From Escherichia coli (lineage in GTDB: Bacteria > Pseudomonadota > Gammaproteobacteria > Enterobacterales > Enterobacteriaceae): DNA of 64,000 nt. The stretch lies in the NCBI RefSeq assembly GCF_044324785.1, contig NZ_CP172127.1; one strand, given 5' to 3'. Of this stretch, positions 35,106-56,763 are shown piece by piece; the first letter of the stretch is position 1, and every line of letters begins with the position of its first letter. Made by a program: the position numbers and the translations under genes. Under the pieces are notes generated by a model. The model saw nothing but the letters and a program-made list of their open reading frames with translations, did no database searches and was not told the DNA's origin.

Positions 35106-35882
35106 ATGTCCGAAACAAAAAACGAACTTGAAGATCTGCTGGAAAAAGCAGCAACCGAACCGGCGCACCGCCCGGCCTTTTTCCGTACGCTACTGGGATC
35201 CACCGTCTGGGTGCCTGGTACGGCGGCGCAGGGCGAGGCTGTGGTTGAAGATAGCGCACTTGATTTACAGCACTGGGAAAAAGAAGACGGCACCAGTGTC
35301 ATTCCTTTTTTCACCTCGTTAGAAGCACTTCAACAGGTGGTTGAAGACGAACAGGCATTTGTCGTAATGCCCGTTCGCACATTGTTTGAGATGACCCTTG
35401 GCGAAACGCTCTTCCTTAATGCCAAACTGCCAACCGGTAAAGAATTTATGCCGCGTGAAATCAGTTTGCTGATTGGTGAAGAAGGAAATCTGCTGAGCAG
35501 CCAGGAAGTACTGGAAGGCGGTGAATCGCTGATATTATCGGAAGTTGCAGAGCCACCAGCACAAATGATTGATTCACTCACCACCTTATTTAAAACCATT
35601 AAGCCAGTGAAGCGTGCTTTTCTTTGTTCAATTAAAGAGAACGAAGAGGCACAGCCTAATTTACTTATTGGCATTGAAGCCGATGGTGATATCGAAGAAA
35701 TTATTCAGGCGGCGGGAAGTGTAGCGACCGATACATTACCTGGCGATGAACCCATCGATATTTGTCAGGTGAAAAAAGGGGAAAAAGGAATTAGCCACTT
35801 TATTACCGAACATATTGTGCCATTCTATGAACGTCGCTGGGGTGGTTTTTTGCGTGACTTTAAACAGAACCGGATAATCTAA
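35106..35882 (+). CDS. sseB: SseB (enhancer of serine sensitivity) family protein
   Basis: 258 aa from MSETKNELEDLL; position between pepB and sseA. Confidence 0.85.
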   Translation: MSETKNELEDLLEKAATEPAHRPAFFRTLLGSTVWVPGTAAQGEAVVEDSALDLQHWEKEDGTSVIPFFTSLEALQQVVEDEQAFVVMPVRTLFEMTLGETLFLNAKLPTGKEFMPREISLLIGEEGNLLSSQEVLEGGESLILSEVAEPPAQMIDSLTTLFKTIKPVKRAFLCSIKENEEAQPNLLIGIEADGDIEEIIQAAGSVATDTLPGDEPIDICQVKKGEKGISHFITEHIVPFYERRWGGFLRDFKQNRII

Positions 35883-35885
35883 AAT

Positions 35886-35912
35886 ATGCCGCCCCAAAGG
35901 GCGGCATTCGGG
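35886..35912. terminator. Bidirectional intrinsic terminator: ends sseB on the + strand and the putative ryfA transcript on the - strand
   Basis: Hairpin gccgccc caaa gggcggc; on the - strand it is followed by atatttt. Confidence 0.55.
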
Positions 35913-36199
35913 CTTACCTGCTGTTCTGAAGGTTGTTAACCACCAATAAATTGTTGCCGGAGAGACTCCGGTTATTATTTACCTCGGTTAACAGCGCACC
36001 AGAAACAATAAGTACGATACAAAAGCACCGTATCTTCATTGTGCGGTCCATGCGAAGACCGCATCACGACAGCACCACTGGCGATATTGCCGCGATAGCA
36101 AGCGCTGAGACGCGCTTGCCCTAACGGTCGCGGAACATCCTTTCCTTAAGCCAGCGCCCGCTTGCGAGACGGCGGAAAGGTCCGCAGTGGATAACACAC
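35893..36199 (-). ncRNA. ryfA: Putative ryfA transcript (about 300 nt), a small mRNA/sRNA carrying a short hydrophobic ORF
   Basis: From memory, ryfA lies next to the sseB 3' end in K-12. Candidate - strand promoter (-35 TTGTCA, 16-bp spacer, -10 TATTGT) near 36207-36234 and the terminator at 35886-35912 bound a roughly 300-nt unit. Confidence 0.45.
35914..36051 (-). CDS. Small hydrophobic ORF (45 codons; 41 from the internal Met at 36039): MDRTMKIRCFCIVLIVSGALLTEVNNNRSLSGNNLLVVNNLQNSR; candidate type I toxin-like membrane peptide (TimP-like)
   Basis: Hand-translated from the - strand; hydrophobic stretch CFCIVLIVSGALL; lies inside the putative ryfA transcript; not in the ORF track because it is under 60 aa. 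Confidence 0.35.
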   Translation of the reverse strand: MDRTMKIRCFCIVLIVSGALLTEVNNNRSLSGNNLLVVNNLQNSR

Positions 36200-36262
36200 T
36201 AACAGAACAATAATAACTCTCTTTTACTTGACAAAAAGAGAGTTACTGGCGAGTATTGTGTC

Positions 36263-36359
36263 CGCTGAGACGCGCTTGCATTACTACGGTTATACAATCT
36301 GCTGGAAAGGCCGCGAACCAAACCAGCAACAAATAACCGCCTGATTTTGGCGGTTTTTT
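36263..36359 (+). ncRNA. Candidate sRNA (about 97 nt) divergent from ryfA, with a 17-nt perfect antisense match to the ryfA 5' region; antitoxin-like (TimR-like)
   Basis: Promoter TTGACA (36228-36233), 17-bp spacer, GAGTAT; internal hairpin tgctgg...ccagca; intrinsic terminator aaccgcc tgatttt ggcggtt plus T6 at 36335-36359; 36263-36279 is identical to 36103-36119 on the same strand. Confidence 0.4.
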
Positions 36360-36539
36360 GTTGTTTAAAGAAAGTGAAATTACACGTTTAAGTAATATCT
36401 TTTACCAGTTAGTATATTTTAATATTAAGCGGGATTTGTTTATATTTGTCTGAATTCGGACTGATAAGCCAAATGAATTCAAAATCTATCCTTTTTTATC
36501 TACTTGACATCGTTGATGCATAAAGCGAGTATTGAGTAG

Positions 36540-36626
36540 ACGAGATACACTTGCAGTAATACAACCTGCTGGAAAGGCCGCGAATCAGACCAGCAATAAA
36601 AAAACCGCCAAATTCGGCGGTTTTTT
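36540..36626 (+). ncRNA. Sibling copy of the candidate sRNA (about 87 nt) with degenerate antisense region; its terminator is bidirectional and also serves sseA
   Basis: Same promoter architecture (TTGACA 36504-36509, 17-bp spacer, GAGTAT), same internal hairpin (cctgctggaaaggccgcgaa...cagca), terminator aaaaaaaccgccaaattcggcggtttttt. Confidence 0.35.
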
Positions 36627-36642
36627 ATTGCCTGTAAAAAGC

Positions 36643-52625: not shown

Positions 52626-54098
52626 ATGGTACCTGTGGTCGCGCTTGTCGGGCGCCCTAACGTAGGAAAATCCACGTTATTTAACCGTCTAACTCGCACC
52701 CGAGATGCGCTGGTTGCGGATTTCCCGGGTCTGACTCGTGACCGTAAGTACGGTCGTGCAGAAATTGAAGGCCGTGAGTTTATCTGCATTGATACCGGCG
52801 GGATTGATGGTACAGAAGACGGTGTAGAAACCCGTATGGCGGAACAGTCGCTGCTGGCGATTGAAGAAGCGGACGTCGTACTGTTTATGGTGGATGCGCG
52901 CGCGGGCCTGATGCCGGCGGATGAAGCGATTGCCAAACATCTGCGCTCCCGTGAAAAACCGACCTTCCTGGTGGCAAACAAAACTGACGGTCTGGATCCC
53001 GATCAGGCAGTGGTTGATTTCTACTCGCTTGGTTTAGGGGAAATCTACCCGATCGCCGCGTCTCACGGTCGTGGCGTATTAAGTCTGCTGGAGCATGTGC
53101 TGCTGCCGTGGATGGAAGATCTCGCACCGCAAGAGGAAGTCGACGAAGACGCTGAATACTGGGCGCAATTTGAAGCAGAAGAAAACGGCGAAGAAGAAGA
53201 GGAAGATGACTTCGACCCGCAAAGTCTGCCAATCAAACTGGCGATTGTGGGTCGTCCGAACGTAGGTAAGTCTACACTCACGAACCGTATTCTTGGTGAA
53301 GAGCGCGTTGTTGTTTACGACATGCCTGGCACGACGCGTGACAGCATCTACATTCCAATGGAACGCGACGGACGTGAGTATGTACTCATTGACACCGCTG
53401 GCGTACGTAAACGCGGCAAAATCACCGATGCTGTAGAGAAGTTCTCGGTAATCAAAACGTTGCAGGCCATTGAAGATGCCAACGTGGTGATGTTGGTGAT
53501 TGATGCGCGCGAAGGTATTTCCGATCAGGATCTCTCCCTGCTGGGCTTTATTCTCAATAGTGGGCGCTCACTTGTCATTGTGGTGAATAAGTGGGATGGC
53601 CTGAGCCAGGAAGTGAAAGAGCAGGTGAAAGAAACGCTGGACTTCCGTCTGGGCTTTATCGATTTTGCTCGTGTGCACTTTATCTCTGCCTTGCACGGCA
53701 GTGGTGTTGGTAATCTGTTTGAATCAGTACGTGAAGCGTATGACAGCTCCACCCGTCGTGTGGGGACCTCTATGCTGACGCGCATCATGACGATGGCTGT
53801 TGAAGATCACCAGCCGCCGCTGGTACGTGGTCGTCGTGTGAAGCTGAAATATGCCCACGCTGGTGGTTATAACCCGCCGATTGTGGTGATTCACGGTAAC
53901 CAGGTGAAAGACCTGCCGGATTCCTACAAGCGTTACTTGATGAACTACTTCCGCAAATCGCTGGACGTAATGGGATCGCCGATTCGTATTCAGTTCAAAG
54001 AAGGGGAAAACCCGTATGCGAACAAGCGTAACACCCTGACGCCAACCCAGATGCGTAAACGTAAGCGCCTGATGAAGCATATCAAGAAAAGTAAGTAA
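52626..54098 (+). CDS. der: Ribosome-associated GTPase Der (EngA), tandem GTPase domains plus KH-like domain
   Basis: 490 aa from [16 protein letters not shown]; second P-loop GRPNVGKST; acidic linker between the GTPase domains. Confidence 0.9.
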
Positions 54099-54160
54099 TC
54101 ACTTATCTGGTTTCCCTTTCCACACGGAGAGGGAAACCGAATAACACGCGAGGAGTATTT

Positions 54161-54376
54161 ATGGCACTCAACTGTCCAACCTGCAAAATCCCTCTCGAAC
54201 GCAATGGCGAGACTGCCCACTGTGCAACTTGCGACAAAGACTTTACCGTCCAGGCACTTTGCCCTGAGTGTCATCAGCCGTTACAAGTGTTAAAAGCTTG
54301 TGGTGCTGTGGATTATTTCTGCCAACATGGGCACGGTTTAATATCTAAAAAACGCGTTGAATTTGTTATTGCTTAA
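54161..54376 (+). CDS. yfgJ: Small zinc-ribbon protein YfgJ
   Basis: 71 aa with four CxxC pairs (CPTC, CATC, CPEC, CQHG region). Confidence 0.8.
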   Translation: MALNCPTCKIPLERNGETAHCATCDKDFTVQALCPECHQPLQVLKACGAVDYFCQHGHGLISKKRVEFVIA

Positions 54377-54585
54377 TATCATGTGAATATATTGTTTTAT
54401 CATTTATATTTAATATGTGAATGGTAAAACAATCTGTTATTAGTGGAATAACTAATGTAATTGAGTGAAATCACTAATTTAAATAATTAAGAATATATTT
54501 ATTCTTTATGACATGCCTTTCTGAATAATCAGGGATACAATATTAAAGCTTATTTTTGACTGTATCATTGTCACAGGGAAAGTGC

Positions 54586-56763
54586 ATGCTGCGATGGAAA
54601 CGCTGTATTATTCTAACATTTATCTCTGGTGCTGCTTTCGCGGCACCAGAGATAAATGTTAAGCAAAACGAATCGTTACCTGATTTAGGTAGCCAGGCAG
54701 CACAGCAGGATGAACAAACCAACAAGGGTAAATCGCTGAAAGAGCGCGGAGCCGATTACGTCATCAACTCCGCCACGCAAGGGTTTGAAAACTTGACCCC
54801 TGAGGCGCTGGAATCTCAGGCCAAAAGCTATCTGCAAAGTCAAATCACCTCAACCGCACAATCTTATATTGAAGACACACTCTCTCCCTACGGTAAGGTC
54901 CGTTCGAACCTCTCCATTGGCCAGGGCGGCGATCTGGATGGCAGTTCCATCGATTATTTTGTTCCCTGGTACGATAATCAAACCACTGTTTATTTCAGTC
55001 AATTTTCTGCGCAACGAAAAGAAGATCGTACAATCGGGAATATTGGTCTTGGAGTAAGACATAATTTTGATGAATGGTTATTGGGTGGAAATATATTTTA
55101 TGATTATGATTTTACCCGAGGACATCGCCGTTTAGGTTTAGGCGGCGAAGCGTGGACTGATTATTTAAAATTCTCTGGCAACTATTATCATCCGCTTTCT
55201 GACTGGAAAGACTCTGAAGATTTCGACTTTTATGAAGAACGCCCTGCGCGCGGCTGGGATATTCGTGCCGAAGCCTGGTTACCTTCTTATCCGCAACTGG
55301 GGGGCAAAGTTGTCTTCGAGCAATATTACGGCGATGAAGTCGCCCTTTTTGGTACGGATAATTTGGAGAAAGATCCCTACGCGGTAACGCTTGGACTGAA
55401 TTATCAACCGGTGCCATTACTGACCGTTGGGACGGATTATAAAGCAGGGACCGGAGATAACAGCGATGTCAGCATTAATGCCACTCTTAATTATCAGTTC
55501 GGCGTTCCGCTAAAAGATCAATTGGATAGCGATAAAGTGAAAGCGGCTCACTCGTTGATGGGCAGTCGTCATGATTTTGTTGAGCGTAATAACTTTATTG
55601 TTCTGGAATACAAAGAAAAAGATCCGCTTGATGTCACCCTGTGGTTAAAAGCGGATGCCACCAACGAGCACCCTGAGTGCGTCATTAAGGACACTCCCGA
55701 AGCGGCCGTCGGGCTGGAAAAATGTAAATGGACCATTAACGCGCTTATCAACCACCACTACAAAATTGTCGCTGCGTCATGGCAGGCGAAAAACAATGCT
55801 GCCCGCACGCTGGTTATGCCGGTTATCAAAGAGAATACCCTGACAGAGGGTAACAATAACCACTGGAACCTGGTGCTGCCCGCCTGGCAGTACAGCTCTG
55901 ACAAAGCCGAACAAGAAAAACTCAATACCTGGCGAGTACGTCTGGCACTGGAAGATGAAAAGGGCAACCGACAGAACTCTGGCATGGTGGAAATCACCGT
56001 TCAGCAGGACCGTAAAATTGAGTTGATTGTTAATAACATCGCGAACGTGCCGGAAGAGAACAACCACAGCCATGAAGCCAGCGCCCAGGCAGATGGCGTT
56101 GATGGTGTGGTGATGGATCTCGATGTAACCGACAGCTTTGGCGATAACACCGACCGCAACGGCGATGCGCTGCCGGAAGATAACCTCACGCCGCAGCTTT
56201 ACGACGCGCAGGACAAACGAGTGACGTTAACCAACAAGCCTTGCTCGACCGACAACCCCTGCGTTTTTATCGCTAAACAAGATAAAGAAAAGGGCACTGT
56301 CACCCTCTCCAGTACCTTACCCGGCACCTATCGCTGGAAAGCAAAAGCCGCGCCCTACGACGACAGTAACTATGTGGATGTCACTTTCCTCGGGACAGAA
56401 ATTGGTGGGCTAAATGCATTTATCTATCGTGTGGGGGCAGCTAAACCCAGCAACCTGATAGGTAAAGATAAAGAACCGCTGCCGCTCAACAACACTTATC
56501 GATTTGTTTTGTGGCGTGACAGCAATAAAGACGGTGTCTTCCAGCAGGTCGAAAAACTGACTGACGAAGAGATGGCGCAGTACGACTACAAGTGGGAATT
56601 TACCGGCAAGAGCATCAATGGTGAAGTGGGTGCACAGGCGAACACATCCAATGAGGACATTGTGATTCCGGCCACTAACCGCGAAGCGGCGCAAACCTAT
56701 GGCGCACAAGCGGGAGATGGCTTGCAGGGATACGGTTTACGCGTGCTGTATACCAAAAAATAA
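54586..56763 (+). CDS. sinH: Intimin/invasin-family inverse autotransporter (SinH-like)
   Basis: Signal peptide MLRWKRCIILTFISGAAFA; region ERPARGWDIRAEAWLPSYPQLGGKVVFEQYYGD...GSRHDFVERNNFIVLEYKEK resembles the intimin/invasin beta-barrel as I remember it; C-terminal passenger; lies next to sinI and ratA. Confidence 0.7.
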   Translation: MLRWKRCIILTFISGAAFAAPEINVKQNESLPDLGSQAAQQDEQTNKGKSLKERGADYVINSATQGFENLTPEALESQAKSYLQSQITSTAQSYIEDTLSPYGKVRSNLSIGQGGDLDGSSIDYFVPWYDNQTTVYFSQFSAQRKEDRTIGNIGLGVRHNFDEWLLGGNIFYDYDFTRGHRRLGLGGEAWTDYLKFSGNYYHPLSDWKDSEDFDFYEERPARGWDIRAEAWLPSYPQLGGKVVFEQYYGDEVALFGTDNLEKDPYAVTLGLNYQPVPLLTVGTDYKAGTGDNSDVSINATLNYQFGVPLKDQLDSDKVKAAHSLMGSRHDFVERNNFIVLEYKEKDPLDVTLWLKADATNEHPECVIKDTPEAAVGLEKCKWTINALINHHYKIVAASWQAKNNAARTLVMPVIKENTLTEGNNNHWNLVLPAWQYSSDKAEQEKLNTWRVRLALEDEKGNRQNSGMVEITVQQDRKIELIVNNIANVPEENNHSHEASAQADGVDGVVMDLDVTDSFGDNTDRNGDALPEDNLTPQLYDAQDKRVTLTNKPCSTDNPCVFIAKQDKEKGTVTLSSTLPGTYRWKAKAAPYDDSNYVDVTFLGTEIGGLNAFIYRVGAAKPSNLIGKDKEPLPLNNTYRFVLWRDSNKDGVFQQVEKLTDEEMAQYDYKWEFTGKSINGEVGAQANTSNEDIVIPATNREAAQTYGAQAGDGLQGYGLRVLYTKK

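What the first reader, a model, noticed from the sequence alone, without database searches (positions are those of the whole stretch)
54377..54585. Strongly AT-rich spacer at the core/island boundary upstream of sinH
The 210 bp between yfgJ and sinH is largely A/T with repeated ATATTT/TTTAT tracts (for example catttatatttaatatgtgaatgg, aatatatttattctttatg). This is typical of horizontally acquired promoters bound by H-NS-type silencers and marks the likely left junction of the island.
Basis: partly seen in the sequence, partly recalled or inferred. Interest (0 to 1): 0.3.

Follow-up and report, generated by a model that had tools for sequence, protein, structure and literature searches.

The report
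AT-rich promoter region of sinH adhesin
The 209-bp AT-rich gap between yfgJ and sinH in this E. coli is an ordinary intergenic region: an RNA hairpin that ends the upstream operon, followed by the promoter of a normally silent adhesin gene. Its AT-richness belongs to that promoter in six genera and is not a scar of foreign DNA.

Summary
Window 54377-54585 has GC 0.244, the lowest of any 210-bp stretch in the 64 kb and far below 12 neighbouring intergenic regions (0.35-0.66).

This is the regulatory region of sinH (called iatB in E. coli). Published work shows the gene is silent in the laboratory and is switched on by LeuO, the classical H-NS antagonist. H-NS binding is therefore plausible, but it has not been shown.

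The AT-richness does not mark foreign DNA:
- The 11.6-kb three-gene segment has core-like GC (0.508 against 0.528).
- It has no mobility genes and no flanking repeats.
- An equally AT-rich spacer of 186-236 bp precedes sinH in Escherichia, Citrobacter, Pseudocitrobacter and Superficieibacter. In Salmonella a GC-rich insert separates an equivalent AT-rich stretch of about 235 bp from yfgJ.

The gene-presence boundary does lie at 54377. Sequence divergence from K-12-type strains, however, starts abruptly at the der stop codon (54099). yfgJ here is a separate allele that is almost completely linked to the island.

The spacer has two parts. A covarying RNA hairpin (54380-54445) probably ends the der-yfgJ transcript. 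A promoter module follows: a conserved 17-bp box (54486-54502), 33 bp, a conserved TACAAT (54536-54541), a weak -35, and a leader of about 37 nt.

The finding is ordinary and of low interest.

The parts
52626..54098 (+). der (engA), the last gene that is 97-99% identical to K-12. Its stop codon is the abrupt left boundary of haplotype divergence.
   Evidence: Annotation of the 100%-identical strain N3. Identity to K-12 drops from 0.97-0.99 to 0.71 and then 0.62 after 54031-54168.
54103..54144 (+). Strong hairpin in the der-yfgJ intergenic region. K-12 has a structurally similar hairpin of different sequence at the same place.
   Evidence: RNA fold -24.9 kcal/mol, z -4.9. The K-12 counterpart is visible in the alignment.
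54161..54376 (+). yfgJ, island-linked allele (double zinc ribbon, 71 aa). The N-terminal half is only 31% identical to K-12 YfgJ.
   Evidence: Pfam PF07191, E 1e-29. Allele comparison. Linkage: 1696 of 1700 genomes matching the window's yfgJ-spacer-sinH 5' query cover at least 80% of it, and 3668 genomes carry the K-12 allele at the empty site.
54377..54585 (.). The AT-rich spacer (the finding): 209 bp, GC 0.244.
54380..54445 (+). Long AT-rich RNA hairpin directly after the yfgJ stop. The core stem pairs 54391-54409 with 54415-54433. It is probably the 3' stem-loop, insulator or weak terminator of the der-yfgJ operon. No U-tract follows it.
   Evidence: -21 kcal/mol, z -5.7, 0 of 200 shuffles fold as well. 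Significant post-yfgJ hairpins occur in 5 of the 9 other lineages folded, plus a GC-rich one in Salmonella that is not significant (z -1.4). Across 5 E. coli alleles there are 2 compensatory pairs and many U-A/U-G exchanges. The strict intrinsic-terminator scan was negative.
54406..54424 (.). Weak match (11 of 14) to the LeuO core palindrome ATATTSA-N5-TGAATAT. It aligns with better matches in other genera, including 14 of 14 in Citrobacter MGH106. An exact TGAATAT half-site also lies at 54384-54390.
   Evidence: Palindrome re-derived from the K-12 cas and leuO regions, as described in PMC6698644. Scan with shuffled controls.
54442..54482 (+). Two copies of a 19-nt direct repeat with 22-bp phasing (AGTGGAATAACTAATGTAA and AGTGAAATCACTAATTTAA). 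It is specific to the E. coli N3/B2-type alleles. Only the ATCAC core is more widely conserved.
   Evidence: alignments.
54486..54502 (+). Conserved upstream box ATTAAGAATATATTTAT (cross-genus consensus TTTAGGAATnTATTTAG). It would lie at about -62 to -46 from the predicted start site. Its binding partner is unknown.
   Evidence: Positions are at least 90% conserved across 16 sequences. Scores of 13-16 out of 16 in 15 of 17 loci, against a shuffle mean of about 10.6. It occurs only once in the window and once in each locus that has an exact match to the pattern.
54536..54541 (+). Candidate -10 hexamer TACAAT (consensus TAnAAT). A54537, A54539 and T54541 are invariant in 16 of 16 sequences. The -35 is weak (ATGCCT, 54513-54518).
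   Evidence: invariant columns. Fixed 33-34 bp spacing from the box in most loci. Best-scoring promoter under a local-composition background. No TSS data exist, so this is an inference.
54575..54579 (+). Shine-Dalgarno AGGGA, 6 nt before the sinH ATG. The predicted 5' UTR of about 37 nt (from about 54548) has no significant structure.
   Evidence: Conserved GG columns. 5' UTR fold z +1.5.
54586..56763 (+). sinH (= iatB), an intimin-like inverse autotransporter of 725 aa.
   Evidence: RefSeq annotation. Pfam IAT_beta, E 1e-108.
56818..57795 (+). sinI-family gene. A review reports it as co-transcribed with sinH.
   Evidence: Annotation. Review PMC12525524, citing Shea 2022.
57916..64000 (+). 5' part of a 2679-aa BIg21/InvE adhesin (RatA-like). 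It runs off the window end. In the identical strain N3 it ends 38 bp before the xseA stop.

Best explanation
The spacer is a two-part intergenic region that belongs functionally to sinH.

(1) First 70 nt (54380-54445). This part is transcribed as the tail of the essential der-yfgJ operon and folds into a long AT-rich RNA hairpin. The hairpin probably defines or protects that transcript's 3' end and shields the downstream promoter from read-through. This is inferred.

(2) Remaining 140 nt. This part is the sinH-sinI promoter. It consists of a conserved 17-bp upstream box (54486-54502), a 33-bp gap with only a weak -35, a conserved -10 TACAAT (54536-54541), a predicted start near 54548, and a short unstructured leader with an AGGGA ribosome-binding site. 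The weak -35 and conserved upstream box point to an activator-dependent promoter (inferred).

The whole tract of about 250 bp is extremely rich in AT and TpA steps, and it contains many competing -10-like hexamers. This is the substrate that H-NS and StpA nucleate on. The most likely mechanism for the published laboratory silence of the gene is H-NS-type occlusion of this promoter, relieved by LeuO. LeuO activation is shown in the literature for E. coli SMS-3-5. H-NS involvement is inferred.

The AT-richness is a maintained regulatory property of the sinH promoter, conserved across six genera. It is not a compositional relic of recent horizontal transfer.
For: - Composition: GC 0.244, lowest in the window. 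TpA 13.4 per 100 bp against 2.6-8.8 in 12 neighbouring intergenic regions. Above the 99.8th percentile for TpA and A/T hexamers.
- Conservation of the trait: the spacer is 186-236 bp with GC 0.21-0.31 in 15 loci from Escherichia, Pseudocitrobacter, Citrobacter and Superficieibacter. The AT trough is confined to -200..0 of the ATG in 11 of 11 species.
- In Salmonella the AT block stays next to sinH, while a GC-rich insert separates it from yfgJ.
- Promoter module: the box and TAnAAT are conserved, with invariant A, A and T. Box, 33-34 bp, TAnAAT, then about 41-44 nt to the ATG recurs in most loci, including Salmonella. TACAAT is the top promoter under a local background. The box is unique per locus.
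- Across Escherichia the spacer is better conserved than four-fold degenerate sites (0.63-0.67 against 0.46-0.53).
- Hairpin: z -5.7, recurrent in other lineages, with compensatory and G-U-compatible changes.
- Literature: iatB/SinH was not detectable in LB or M9 at 28, 37 or 42 C. All 12 up-mutants of an iatB::lacZ fusion drive leuO, and LeuO over-expression raises iatB mRNA (PMC6714894).
- No sinH TSS was detected in Salmonella in late stationary phase, and engA-yfgJ is listed as one operon (PMC3963941 supplement).
- sinH is reported as upregulated during human UTI (PMC9937491, citing Shea 2022).
Against: - No H-NS ChIP or hns-mutant expression data for this locus could be accessed. The transposon screen in Goh 2019 recovered only leuO-activating insertions and none in hns.
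- The H-NS high-affinity motif TCGATAAATT is not enriched over shuffles. That consensus was recalled from memory, and the test has little power in DNA this AT-rich.
- No TSS has been mapped, so the -10 assignment is inference. The strict sigma-70 consensus scan found no promoter.
- The hairpin has no U-tract and failed the terminator scan. It is absent in E. albertii and Superficieibacter. The covariation evidence rests on only 5 related sequences.
- Two Citrobacter lineages (C. youngae and C. gillenii) lack the box.
- LeuO raised iatB mRNA but the protein stayed undetectable, so other control layers exist.
Confidence: 0.6

Rival explanations
1. The AT-rich tract is a compositional remnant of horizontally acquired DNA that marks the left insertion junction of a genomic island. 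It is AT-rich because the island is foreign.
For: The segment is present in about 1700 and absent in 3668 of 5426 complete E. coli genomes. The presence/absence edge is exactly at the yfgJ stop.
Against: Island GC is 0.508 against 0.528 for the core, and GC3 is similar to der. There is no integrase, tRNA or IS, and no edge repeat of 9 nt or more. The same AT-rich spacer lies upstream of sinH in six genera. The divergence boundary is at the der stop, not in the spacer. In Salmonella the AT block is not adjacent to yfgJ.
Confidence: 0.07
2. The inverted repeat near 54386-54438 is primarily a DNA binding site for LeuO, an LTTR that recognises a 7-5-7 palindrome, and not an RNA hairpin. LeuO bound there and at the GAATAT-containing box about 80-105 bp downstream would displace H-NS and activate sinH.
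For: A LeuO-core-like palindrome lies at the same aligned position in many orthologues: 14 of 14 in Citrobacter MGH106 and 12 of 14 in four others, with per-sequence shuffle p of 0.00-0.04. An exact TGAATAT half-site is at 54384, and GAATAT occurs twice where 0.39 is expected. LeuO activates iatB.
Against: The window's own match is only 11 of 14 and is not self-complementary. The inverted-repeat arms (19-24 nt) are much longer than a transcription-factor palindrome. Substitutions among E. coli alleles preserve G-U-compatible RNA pairing, which is strand-specific and meaningless for protein binding. AT-rich palindromes of the ATATT...AATAT type arise easily, and 17 sequences were scanned. The two readings are not mutually exclusive.
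Confidence: 0.2
3. The conserved box (54486-54502) is a binding site for RcsB paired with an auxiliary partner. This would link sinH to envelope-stress and biofilm control, as at other H-NS-repressed loci activated by BglJ-RcsB.
For: The box contains TAAGA/TAGGA, which equals the TN(G/A)GA half of the RcsB box TN(G/A)GAN4TC(T/C)NA (PMC7913699). Its first 9 nt equal those of the RcsA-RcsB box TaAGaatatTCctA (quoted in PMC3950696). Heteromeric RcsB sites share only one half with the homodimer box, and they lie about 52-79 bp upstream of start sites. The box centre would be at about -54.
Against: The second half (ATTTA) does not match TC(T/C)NA, so the full box test fails. A half-site with four specified bases is weak evidence. 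sinH is not mentioned in the main text of the Salmonella RcsB regulon paper (0 occurrences).
Confidence: 0.1
4. The spacer has no dedicated promoter. sinH is expressed by read-through from the der-yfgJ operon, and the hairpin acts as a conditional attenuator.
For: All the genes are co-oriented. There is no canonical terminator between yfgJ and sinH. No sinH TSS was detected in Salmonella.
Against: der is essential and constitutively expressed, yet SinH is undetectable in vitro. A chromosomal iatB promoter-lacZ fusion responds to LeuO. The conserved -10 and box at fixed spacing argue for a local promoter.
Confidence: 0.08

Closest known systems
iatB promoter of E. coli SMS-3-5 (Goh et al. 2019, mSphere, PMC6714894)
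   Same: Same gene (the SinH orthologue, 725 aa) and the same locus. The gene is silent in vitro, and promoter activity is raised by LeuO over-expression.
   Different: That study mapped no TSS, binding site or promoter element and did not test H-NS. The window comes from a different strain (identical to strain N3 across the finding region; 2 mismatches over 9.9 kb). The anatomy given here (hairpin, box, -10) is new detail.
H-NS-silenced, LeuO-counter-silenced promoters (bgl, cas/Pcas, leuO, yjjQ-bglJ in E. coli)
   Same: An extremely AT-rich regulatory region, lack of expression in the laboratory, and activation when LeuO is over-produced.
   Different: At those loci H-NS binding and LeuO footprints have been demonstrated. 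Here neither has. The downstream gene body here is not AT-rich, so any H-NS filament would be confined to about 250-300 bp.
CS54 island of Salmonella Typhimurium (xseA-shdA-ratB-ratA-sinI-sinH-yfgJ; Kingsley et al. 2003) and the 'ila locus' of UPEC (Shea et al. 2022)
   Same: Same chromosomal position between yfgJ and xseA. Same sinH-sinI-large adhesin order. Same conserved box, 33 bp, -10 upstream of sinH.
   Different: The E. coli version has only three genes (no shdA or ratB in strain N3). Salmonella has an extra GC-rich insert of about 110 bp between yfgJ and the AT-rich promoter.
fdeC, another E. coli inverse autotransporter regulated by H-NS and temperature (Easton et al. 2014, cited)
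   Same: An intimin-like adhesin gene that is silent in vitro. H-NS repression has been demonstrated for that paralogous family member.
   Different: A different locus and promoter. The regulation cannot be transferred by homology.

Membership tests
H-NS (xenogeneic-silencer) target promoter | AT content far above the genome average over at least 100-200 bp | tested here: met
   GC 0.244 over 209 bp against 0.525 for the window; lowest 0.09% of 210-bp windows.
H-NS (xenogeneic-silencer) target promoter | Abundant flexible TpA steps or A/T-only runs | tested here: met
   28 TpA steps (13.4 per 100 bp) and 41 A/T hexamer starts, both above the 99.8th percentile. A/T-only runs of 16, 15 and 12 nt.
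H-NS (xenogeneic-silencer) target promoter | H-NS occupancy in vivo (ChIP) | not testable with these tools
   No ChIP data for this locus could be retrieved. The Lucchini 2006 supplements are not held and its main text does not mention the locus.
H-NS (xenogeneic-silencer) target promoter | De-repression in an hns mutant | not testable with these tools
   No such experiment was found. Goh 2019 did not test hns.
H-NS (xenogeneic-silencer) target promoter | Counter-silencing by a known H-NS antagonist | not tested
   Not testable here. The literature reports that LeuO over-expression raises iatB promoter activity and mRNA in SMS-3-5 (PMC6714894).
H-NS (xenogeneic-silencer) target promoter | The silenced gene or island is itself low-GC foreign DNA | tested here: not met
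   GC: sinH 0.484, sinI 0.518, adhesin 0.520, whole segment 0.508, core 0.528.
Integrative genomic island with a defined insertion junction | Integrase, transposase or other mobility genes | tested here: not met
   The segment holds only three adhesin-type genes.
Integrative genomic island with a defined insertion junction | Flanking direct repeats (att) or a tRNA target | tested here: not met
   No k-mer of 9 nt or more is shared between the two edges. No tRNA is annotated there.
Integrative genomic island with a defined insertion junction | Presence/absence polymorphism with a sharp homology breakpoint | tested here: inconclusive
   The polymorphism is real (about 1700 against 3668 genomes). 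The flanks, however, are themselves diverged: yfgJ at 62-81% and the last 350-700 bp of xseA at 48-87%. No single insertion point can be defined.
Sigma-70 promoter | -10 hexamer close to TATAAT with A at position 2 and T at position 6 | tested here: met
   TACAAT at 54536-54541. A, A and T are invariant in 16 of 16 sequences. It is the top candidate under a local background.
Sigma-70 promoter | -35 hexamer close to TTGACA at 16-18 bp | tested here: not met
   ATGCCT (2 of 6) at 17 bp. The strict consensus scan found no promoter. This is consistent with activator dependence.
Sigma-70 promoter | Mapped transcription start site | not testable with these tools
   No TSS for sinH in the Salmonella late-stationary-phase dRNA-seq tables. 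No E. coli data were found.
LeuO core binding site (19-bp 7-5-7 palindrome ATATTSA-N5-TGAATAT) | Match to the palindrome shared by cas site IIa and leuO site I | tested here: inconclusive
   At the aligned position the window has 11 of 14. Its best match anywhere in the spacer is 12 of 14 on the minus strand (shuffle p 0.023). Orthologues reach up to 14 of 14 at the aligned position. The position coincides with an RNA hairpin.
RcsB box TN(G/A)GAN4TC(T/C)NA | Both half-sites present with 4-nt spacing | tested here: not met
   The box reads TAAGA-ATAT-ATTTA. The left half matches and the right half does not (consensus from PMC7913699; sequence).
Intrinsic (Rho-independent) terminator | Stable stem-loop | tested here: met
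   -21 kcal/mol, z -5.7.
Intrinsic (Rho-independent) terminator | GC-rich stem followed by a U-tract | tested here: not met
   The stem is AT-rich and no T-run follows it. The terminator scan was negative.

The most novel reading that the evidence does not exclude
The 17-bp box TTTAGGAATnTATTTAG lies at a fixed 33-34 bp from a conserved -10 in Escherichia, Salmonella, Citrobacter, Pseudocitrobacter and Superficieibacter. It may be the operator of a dedicated, still unidentified activator, possibly an RcsB-partner heteromer or a second LeuO contact, that switches on the SinH adhesin/vaccine-antigen locus in the host. The covarying hairpin after yfgJ may act as an insulator that stops read-through from the essential der operon from de-silencing the promoter.
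Probability: 0.3. Interest if true: 0.4.

Novelty: new member of a known kind. Interest (0 to 1): 0.2.

Why it matters
SinH is a leading ExPEC vaccine antigen and a fitness factor in urinary tract infection. It is invisible under laboratory conditions, and its promoter has never been mapped. A concrete, conserved promoter model (box, -10, predicted start site, upstream hairpin) gives testable targets for finding the in-host signal that turns the gene on.

The analysis also corrects a common shortcut. Here an AT-rich intergenic tract next to a variable segment is a conserved regulatory feature and not evidence of foreign origin. The real haplotype boundary lies one gene to the left. Beyond that, this is an ordinary example of an AT-rich, probably H-NS/LeuO-controlled adhesin promoter.

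Tried and rejected
- Strict sigma-70 and terminator consensus scans of 54000-54800 found nothing.
- Rfam at a permissive E-value gave only spurious miRNA hits.
- The H-NS motif TCGATAAATT showed no enrichment over shuffles in any of 17 spacers. The test is uninformative in DNA this AT-rich.
- I looked for H-NS ChIP, hns-mutant, LeuO ChIP and TSS data. The Lucchini 2006 supplements are not held and its text has no mention of the locus. Kingsley 2003, Shea 2022 and Kroger 2012 are not held. The LeuO ChIP-seq supplements are not held. The Ramachandran 2014 TSS tables contain no sinH TSS.
- RcsB box: only the left half matches, so it was rejected as a full site.
- Reading the box as a second -10 (TATATT at 54494) was rejected, because the essential A at position 2 is not conserved in other genera.
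- The ATGACA at 54508 as a -35 was rejected. Its 22-bp spacing is too long and it is not conserved.
- A search for att-like repeats at the island edges found none of 9 nt or more.
- A LeuO full palindrome around the box gave poor left or right halves on manual inspection.

Full report
**1. Observation**

The window is E. coli. It is 100% identical across the finding region to strain N3 (NZ_CP031609), with 2 mismatches over the 9.9 kb compared. The gene order is der (52626-54098), a yfgJ-family double zinc-ribbon gene (54161-54376), sinH (ATG at 54586, ending 56763), a sinI-family gene (56818-57795), and a 2679-aa BIg21/InvE adhesin that runs off the window. In N3 that adhesin ends 38 bp before the convergent xseA.

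- Its GC is 0.244 against 0.525 for the window.
- It falls in the lowest 0.09% of all 210-bp windows. Only one other stretch (36280-36580) drops below 0.33.
- Twelve neighbouring intergenic regions have GC 0.35-0.66 and 2.6-8.8 TpA per 100 bp. This one has 13.4.

**2. Is it the island junction?**

In K-12, yfgJ and xseA are convergent and their stop codons overlap by 4 bp, so there is no spacer at all. BLAST and global alignments place the end of K-12 homology exactly after the yfgJ stop. In terms of gene content, the left edge is at 54377.

The flanks, however, are not the same sequence in the two states.
- Identity to K-12 is 0.96-1.00 through bamB and der. It collapses at the der stop codon to 0.71, then 0.62, then 0.81 across the der-yfgJ intergenic region and yfgJ.
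- The N-terminal half of YfgJ is only 31% identical to the K-12 protein.
- On the right, the last 60 nt of xseA are 48% identical, and identity recovers only over 350-700 bp.

Across 5426 complete E. coli genomes:
- 1700 match the query spanning the window's yfgJ, the spacer and the sinH 5' end, and 1696 of these cover at least 80% of it.
- 3668 carry the K-12 yfgJ allele at an empty site.
- At most 4 genomes break the linkage. One of them is an IS5-mediated deletion.

The 11.6-kb segment has no mobility gene, no tRNA, and no repeat of 9 nt or more shared between its edges. Its GC is 0.508, with GC3 similar to der.

These are two old haplotypes that exchange by homologous recombination. This is not an element inserted at a definable point. 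The sharp sequence boundary lies at 54099, not in the AT-rich spacer. Consistent with that, E. albertii and E. coli E69 carry an unrelated AlpA/CBASS element between der and yfgJ.

**3. The AT-richness belongs to sinH**

A scan of one genome per species returned 15 usable loci with yfgJ directly upstream of sinH. They come from Escherichia (E. coli, E. whittamii, E. albertii and unnamed Escherichia species), Pseudocitrobacter, Citrobacter and Superficieibacter. A Salmonella locus was fetched separately.
- In the 15 loci the spacer is 186-236 bp with GC 0.21-0.31, while locus GC is 0.43-0.54.
- GC profiles aligned on the sinH ATG show the trough confined to -200..0 in 11 of 11 species.
- In Salmonella the yfgJ-sinH gap is 345 bp. 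A GC-rich insert of about 110 bp follows yfgJ, and the AT-rich stretch of about 235 bp stays next to sinH.

The AT tract is therefore a conserved property of the sinH upstream region and not a junction scar.

**4. Anatomy**

*(a) Hairpin after yfgJ.* Positions 54380-54445 fold into a long hairpin of 19 consecutive pairs, at -21 kcal/mol with z -5.7.
- ST131, E69, E. whittamii, Citrobacter MGH106 and Pseudocitrobacter have significant hairpins at the same place, though not always of the same sequence. Salmonella has a GC-rich one that is not significant (z -1.4). E. albertii and Superficieibacter have none.
- Among five E. coli alleles the stem is kept through two double (compensatory) changes and many U-A to U-G changes. 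Those exchanges preserve pairing only in RNA of this strand.
- No U-tract follows the hairpin, and the terminator scan is negative.
- A Salmonella dRNA-seq table lists engA-yfgJ as one operon.

I infer a 3' stem-loop or insulator of the der-yfgJ transcript.

*(b) Lineage-specific repeat.* A 19-nt direct repeat with 22-bp phasing occupies 54442-54482. It is confined to the N3/B2-type alleles.

*(c) Conserved upstream box.* The box at 54486-54502 (consensus TTTAGGAATnTATTTAG) is conserved at 90% or more at seven positions across 16 sequences. It scores 13-16 of 16 in 15 of 17 loci, against a shuffle mean of about 10.6. It occurs only once in the window and once in each locus that has an exact match to the pattern.

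*(d) Candidate -10.* A TAnAAT hexamer lies 33-34 bp downstream of the box in most loci. In the window it is TACAAT at 54536-54541. A, A and T are invariant in 16 of 16 sequences. It is the best promoter candidate once the local composition is taken as background. Its -35 is poor (ATGCCT).

*(e) Leader.* The -10 lies about 41-44 nt from the ATG, which gives a leader of about 37 nt from the predicted start. The leader is unstructured (z +1.5) and carries AGGGA 6 nt before the ATG.

The spacer also holds 13 plus 10 TAnnnT hexamers on the two strands. This is the typical promiscuous promoter potential of AT-rich DNA.

Across Escherichia species the spacer is more conserved (0.63-0.67) than four-fold degenerate sites of sinH (0.46-0.53). 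Between close alleles it is the fastest-evolving part (0.89-0.90 against 0.96-0.99). Both patterns are as expected for a regulatory intergenic region with islands of constraint.

**5. Mechanism**

Goh et al. 2019 (PMC6714894) studied this gene as iatB.
- The protein was undetectable in LB or M9 at 28, 37 or 42 C.
- All 12 up-mutants of a chromosomal iatB::lacZ fusion were insertions driving leuO.
- LeuO over-expression raised iatB mRNA.

LeuO is the classical H-NS co-regulator and antagonist (PMC6698644). Secondary sources report that sinH is co-transcribed with sinI and is induced during human UTI.

Taken together with the composition, the best-supported model is a weak, activator-dependent sigma-70 promoter embedded in an AT/TpA-rich patch of about 250 bp. 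H-NS/StpA nucleates on the patch and occludes the promoter, and LeuO relieves this.
- Shown (literature): laboratory silence and the LeuO effect.
- Shown (this analysis): the composition and the conserved elements.
- Inferred: H-NS occupancy, the TSS, and the roles of the box and the hairpin.

**6. Candidate regulators tested**

*LeuO.* I re-derived the LeuO core palindrome from K-12: ATATTCA-TACTG-TGAATAT at cas and ATATTGA-TTTGG-TGAATAT at leuO. This fits the description in PMC6698644.
- Many orthologues have a good match at one aligned position about 30 nt after yfgJ, reaching 14 of 14 in Citrobacter MGH106.
- In Citrobacter MGH106 and Pseudocitrobacter that match is the tip of the RNA hairpin. 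In the window the aligned element scores only 11 of 14, lies about 3 nt off the hairpin's axis, and is not self-complementary.
- I rate a LeuO site there as possible but secondary.

*RcsB.* The conserved box matches only the left half of the RcsB box TN(G/A)GAN4TC(T/C)NA. It shares its first 9 nt with the RcsA-RcsB box. This is a lead, not a membership.

**7. Comparison with what is known, and verdict**

The locus is the E. coli counterpart of the Salmonella CS54 island and of the UPEC 'ila locus'. The promoter region is the one used in the iatB::lacZ fusion of Goh 2019.

What is new is descriptive:
- the two-part architecture of the spacer;
- the cross-genus box and -10 module;
- the demonstration that the AT-richness is regulatory and not a compositional relic;
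- the location of the true haplotype boundary at the der stop.

None of this would surprise a specialist. This is a new, better-described member of the well-known class of AT-rich, LeuO-responsive, probably H-NS-silenced adhesin promoters. Interest is low.

Noticed in passing
window 54099-54376; K-12 locus L003 9600-9884: yfgJ exists in E. coli as two deeply diverged alleles. The DNA is 62% identical over the 5' half and the N-terminal half of the protein is 31% identical. The divergence starts abruptly at the der stop codon. The alleles are almost completely linked to presence (about 1700 genomes) or absence (3668 genomes) of the sinH segment.
   Followed up: partly
L008 326-3387 (E. albertii NBRC 107761); L019 2737-3393 (E. 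coli E69): A different mobile element sits between der and yfgJ in these genomes. It carries an AlpA-family regulator next to yfgJ and, in E. albertii, a CBASS pair (CD-NTase with an AGS-C sensor domain, plus a Cap15 effector). The der/yfgJ junction is therefore a second insertion hotspot beside the sinH locus.
   Followed up: partly
window 54586-55485 compared with L005 and L019: E. coli sinH alleles are saturated at synonymous sites. Four-fold-site identity between N3 and strains E69 or SCPM-O-B-8794 is about 0.46-0.53, as divergent as between Escherichia species. This implies several ancient or introgressed allele lineages of a current vaccine antigen.
   Followed up: partly
window 54103-54144: There is a strong hairpin in the der-yfgJ intergenic region (-24.9 kcal/mol, z -4.9). 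K-12 has a hairpin of similar shape but different sequence at the same place, which suggests a conserved RNA structure between der and yfgJ.
   Followed up: no
window 35881-36495 (minus strand): The only other low-GC patch of the window (36280-36580) is the ryfA (RF00126, 318 bits) and IS128 (RF00125, 166 bits) small-RNA locus. It includes two similar terminator-bearing repeats at about 36290-36360 and 36560-36630.
   Followed up: partly
L002 6061-9020 (E. coli E06, NZ_CM143910): An ISKpn26 (IS5-family) insertion has deleted the 3' end of yfgJ, the whole AT-rich spacer and the 5' end of sinH. This is a natural promoter knockout of the locus in a urine isolate.
   Followed up: no
L023 5001-7189 (Salmonella enterica GCA_900456555.1): In this Salmonella genome sinH is broken into several ORFs (188, 73, 304 and 83 aa), so it is a pseudogene. 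The upstream box and -10 are nevertheless intact.
   Followed up: no
L004 (MAG labelled Collinsella sp.) and L021 (Rhizobium wenxiniae contig): Short contigs 96-98% identical to E. coli sinH are filed under unrelated taxa. They are almost certainly E. coli contamination in those assemblies.
   Followed up: no
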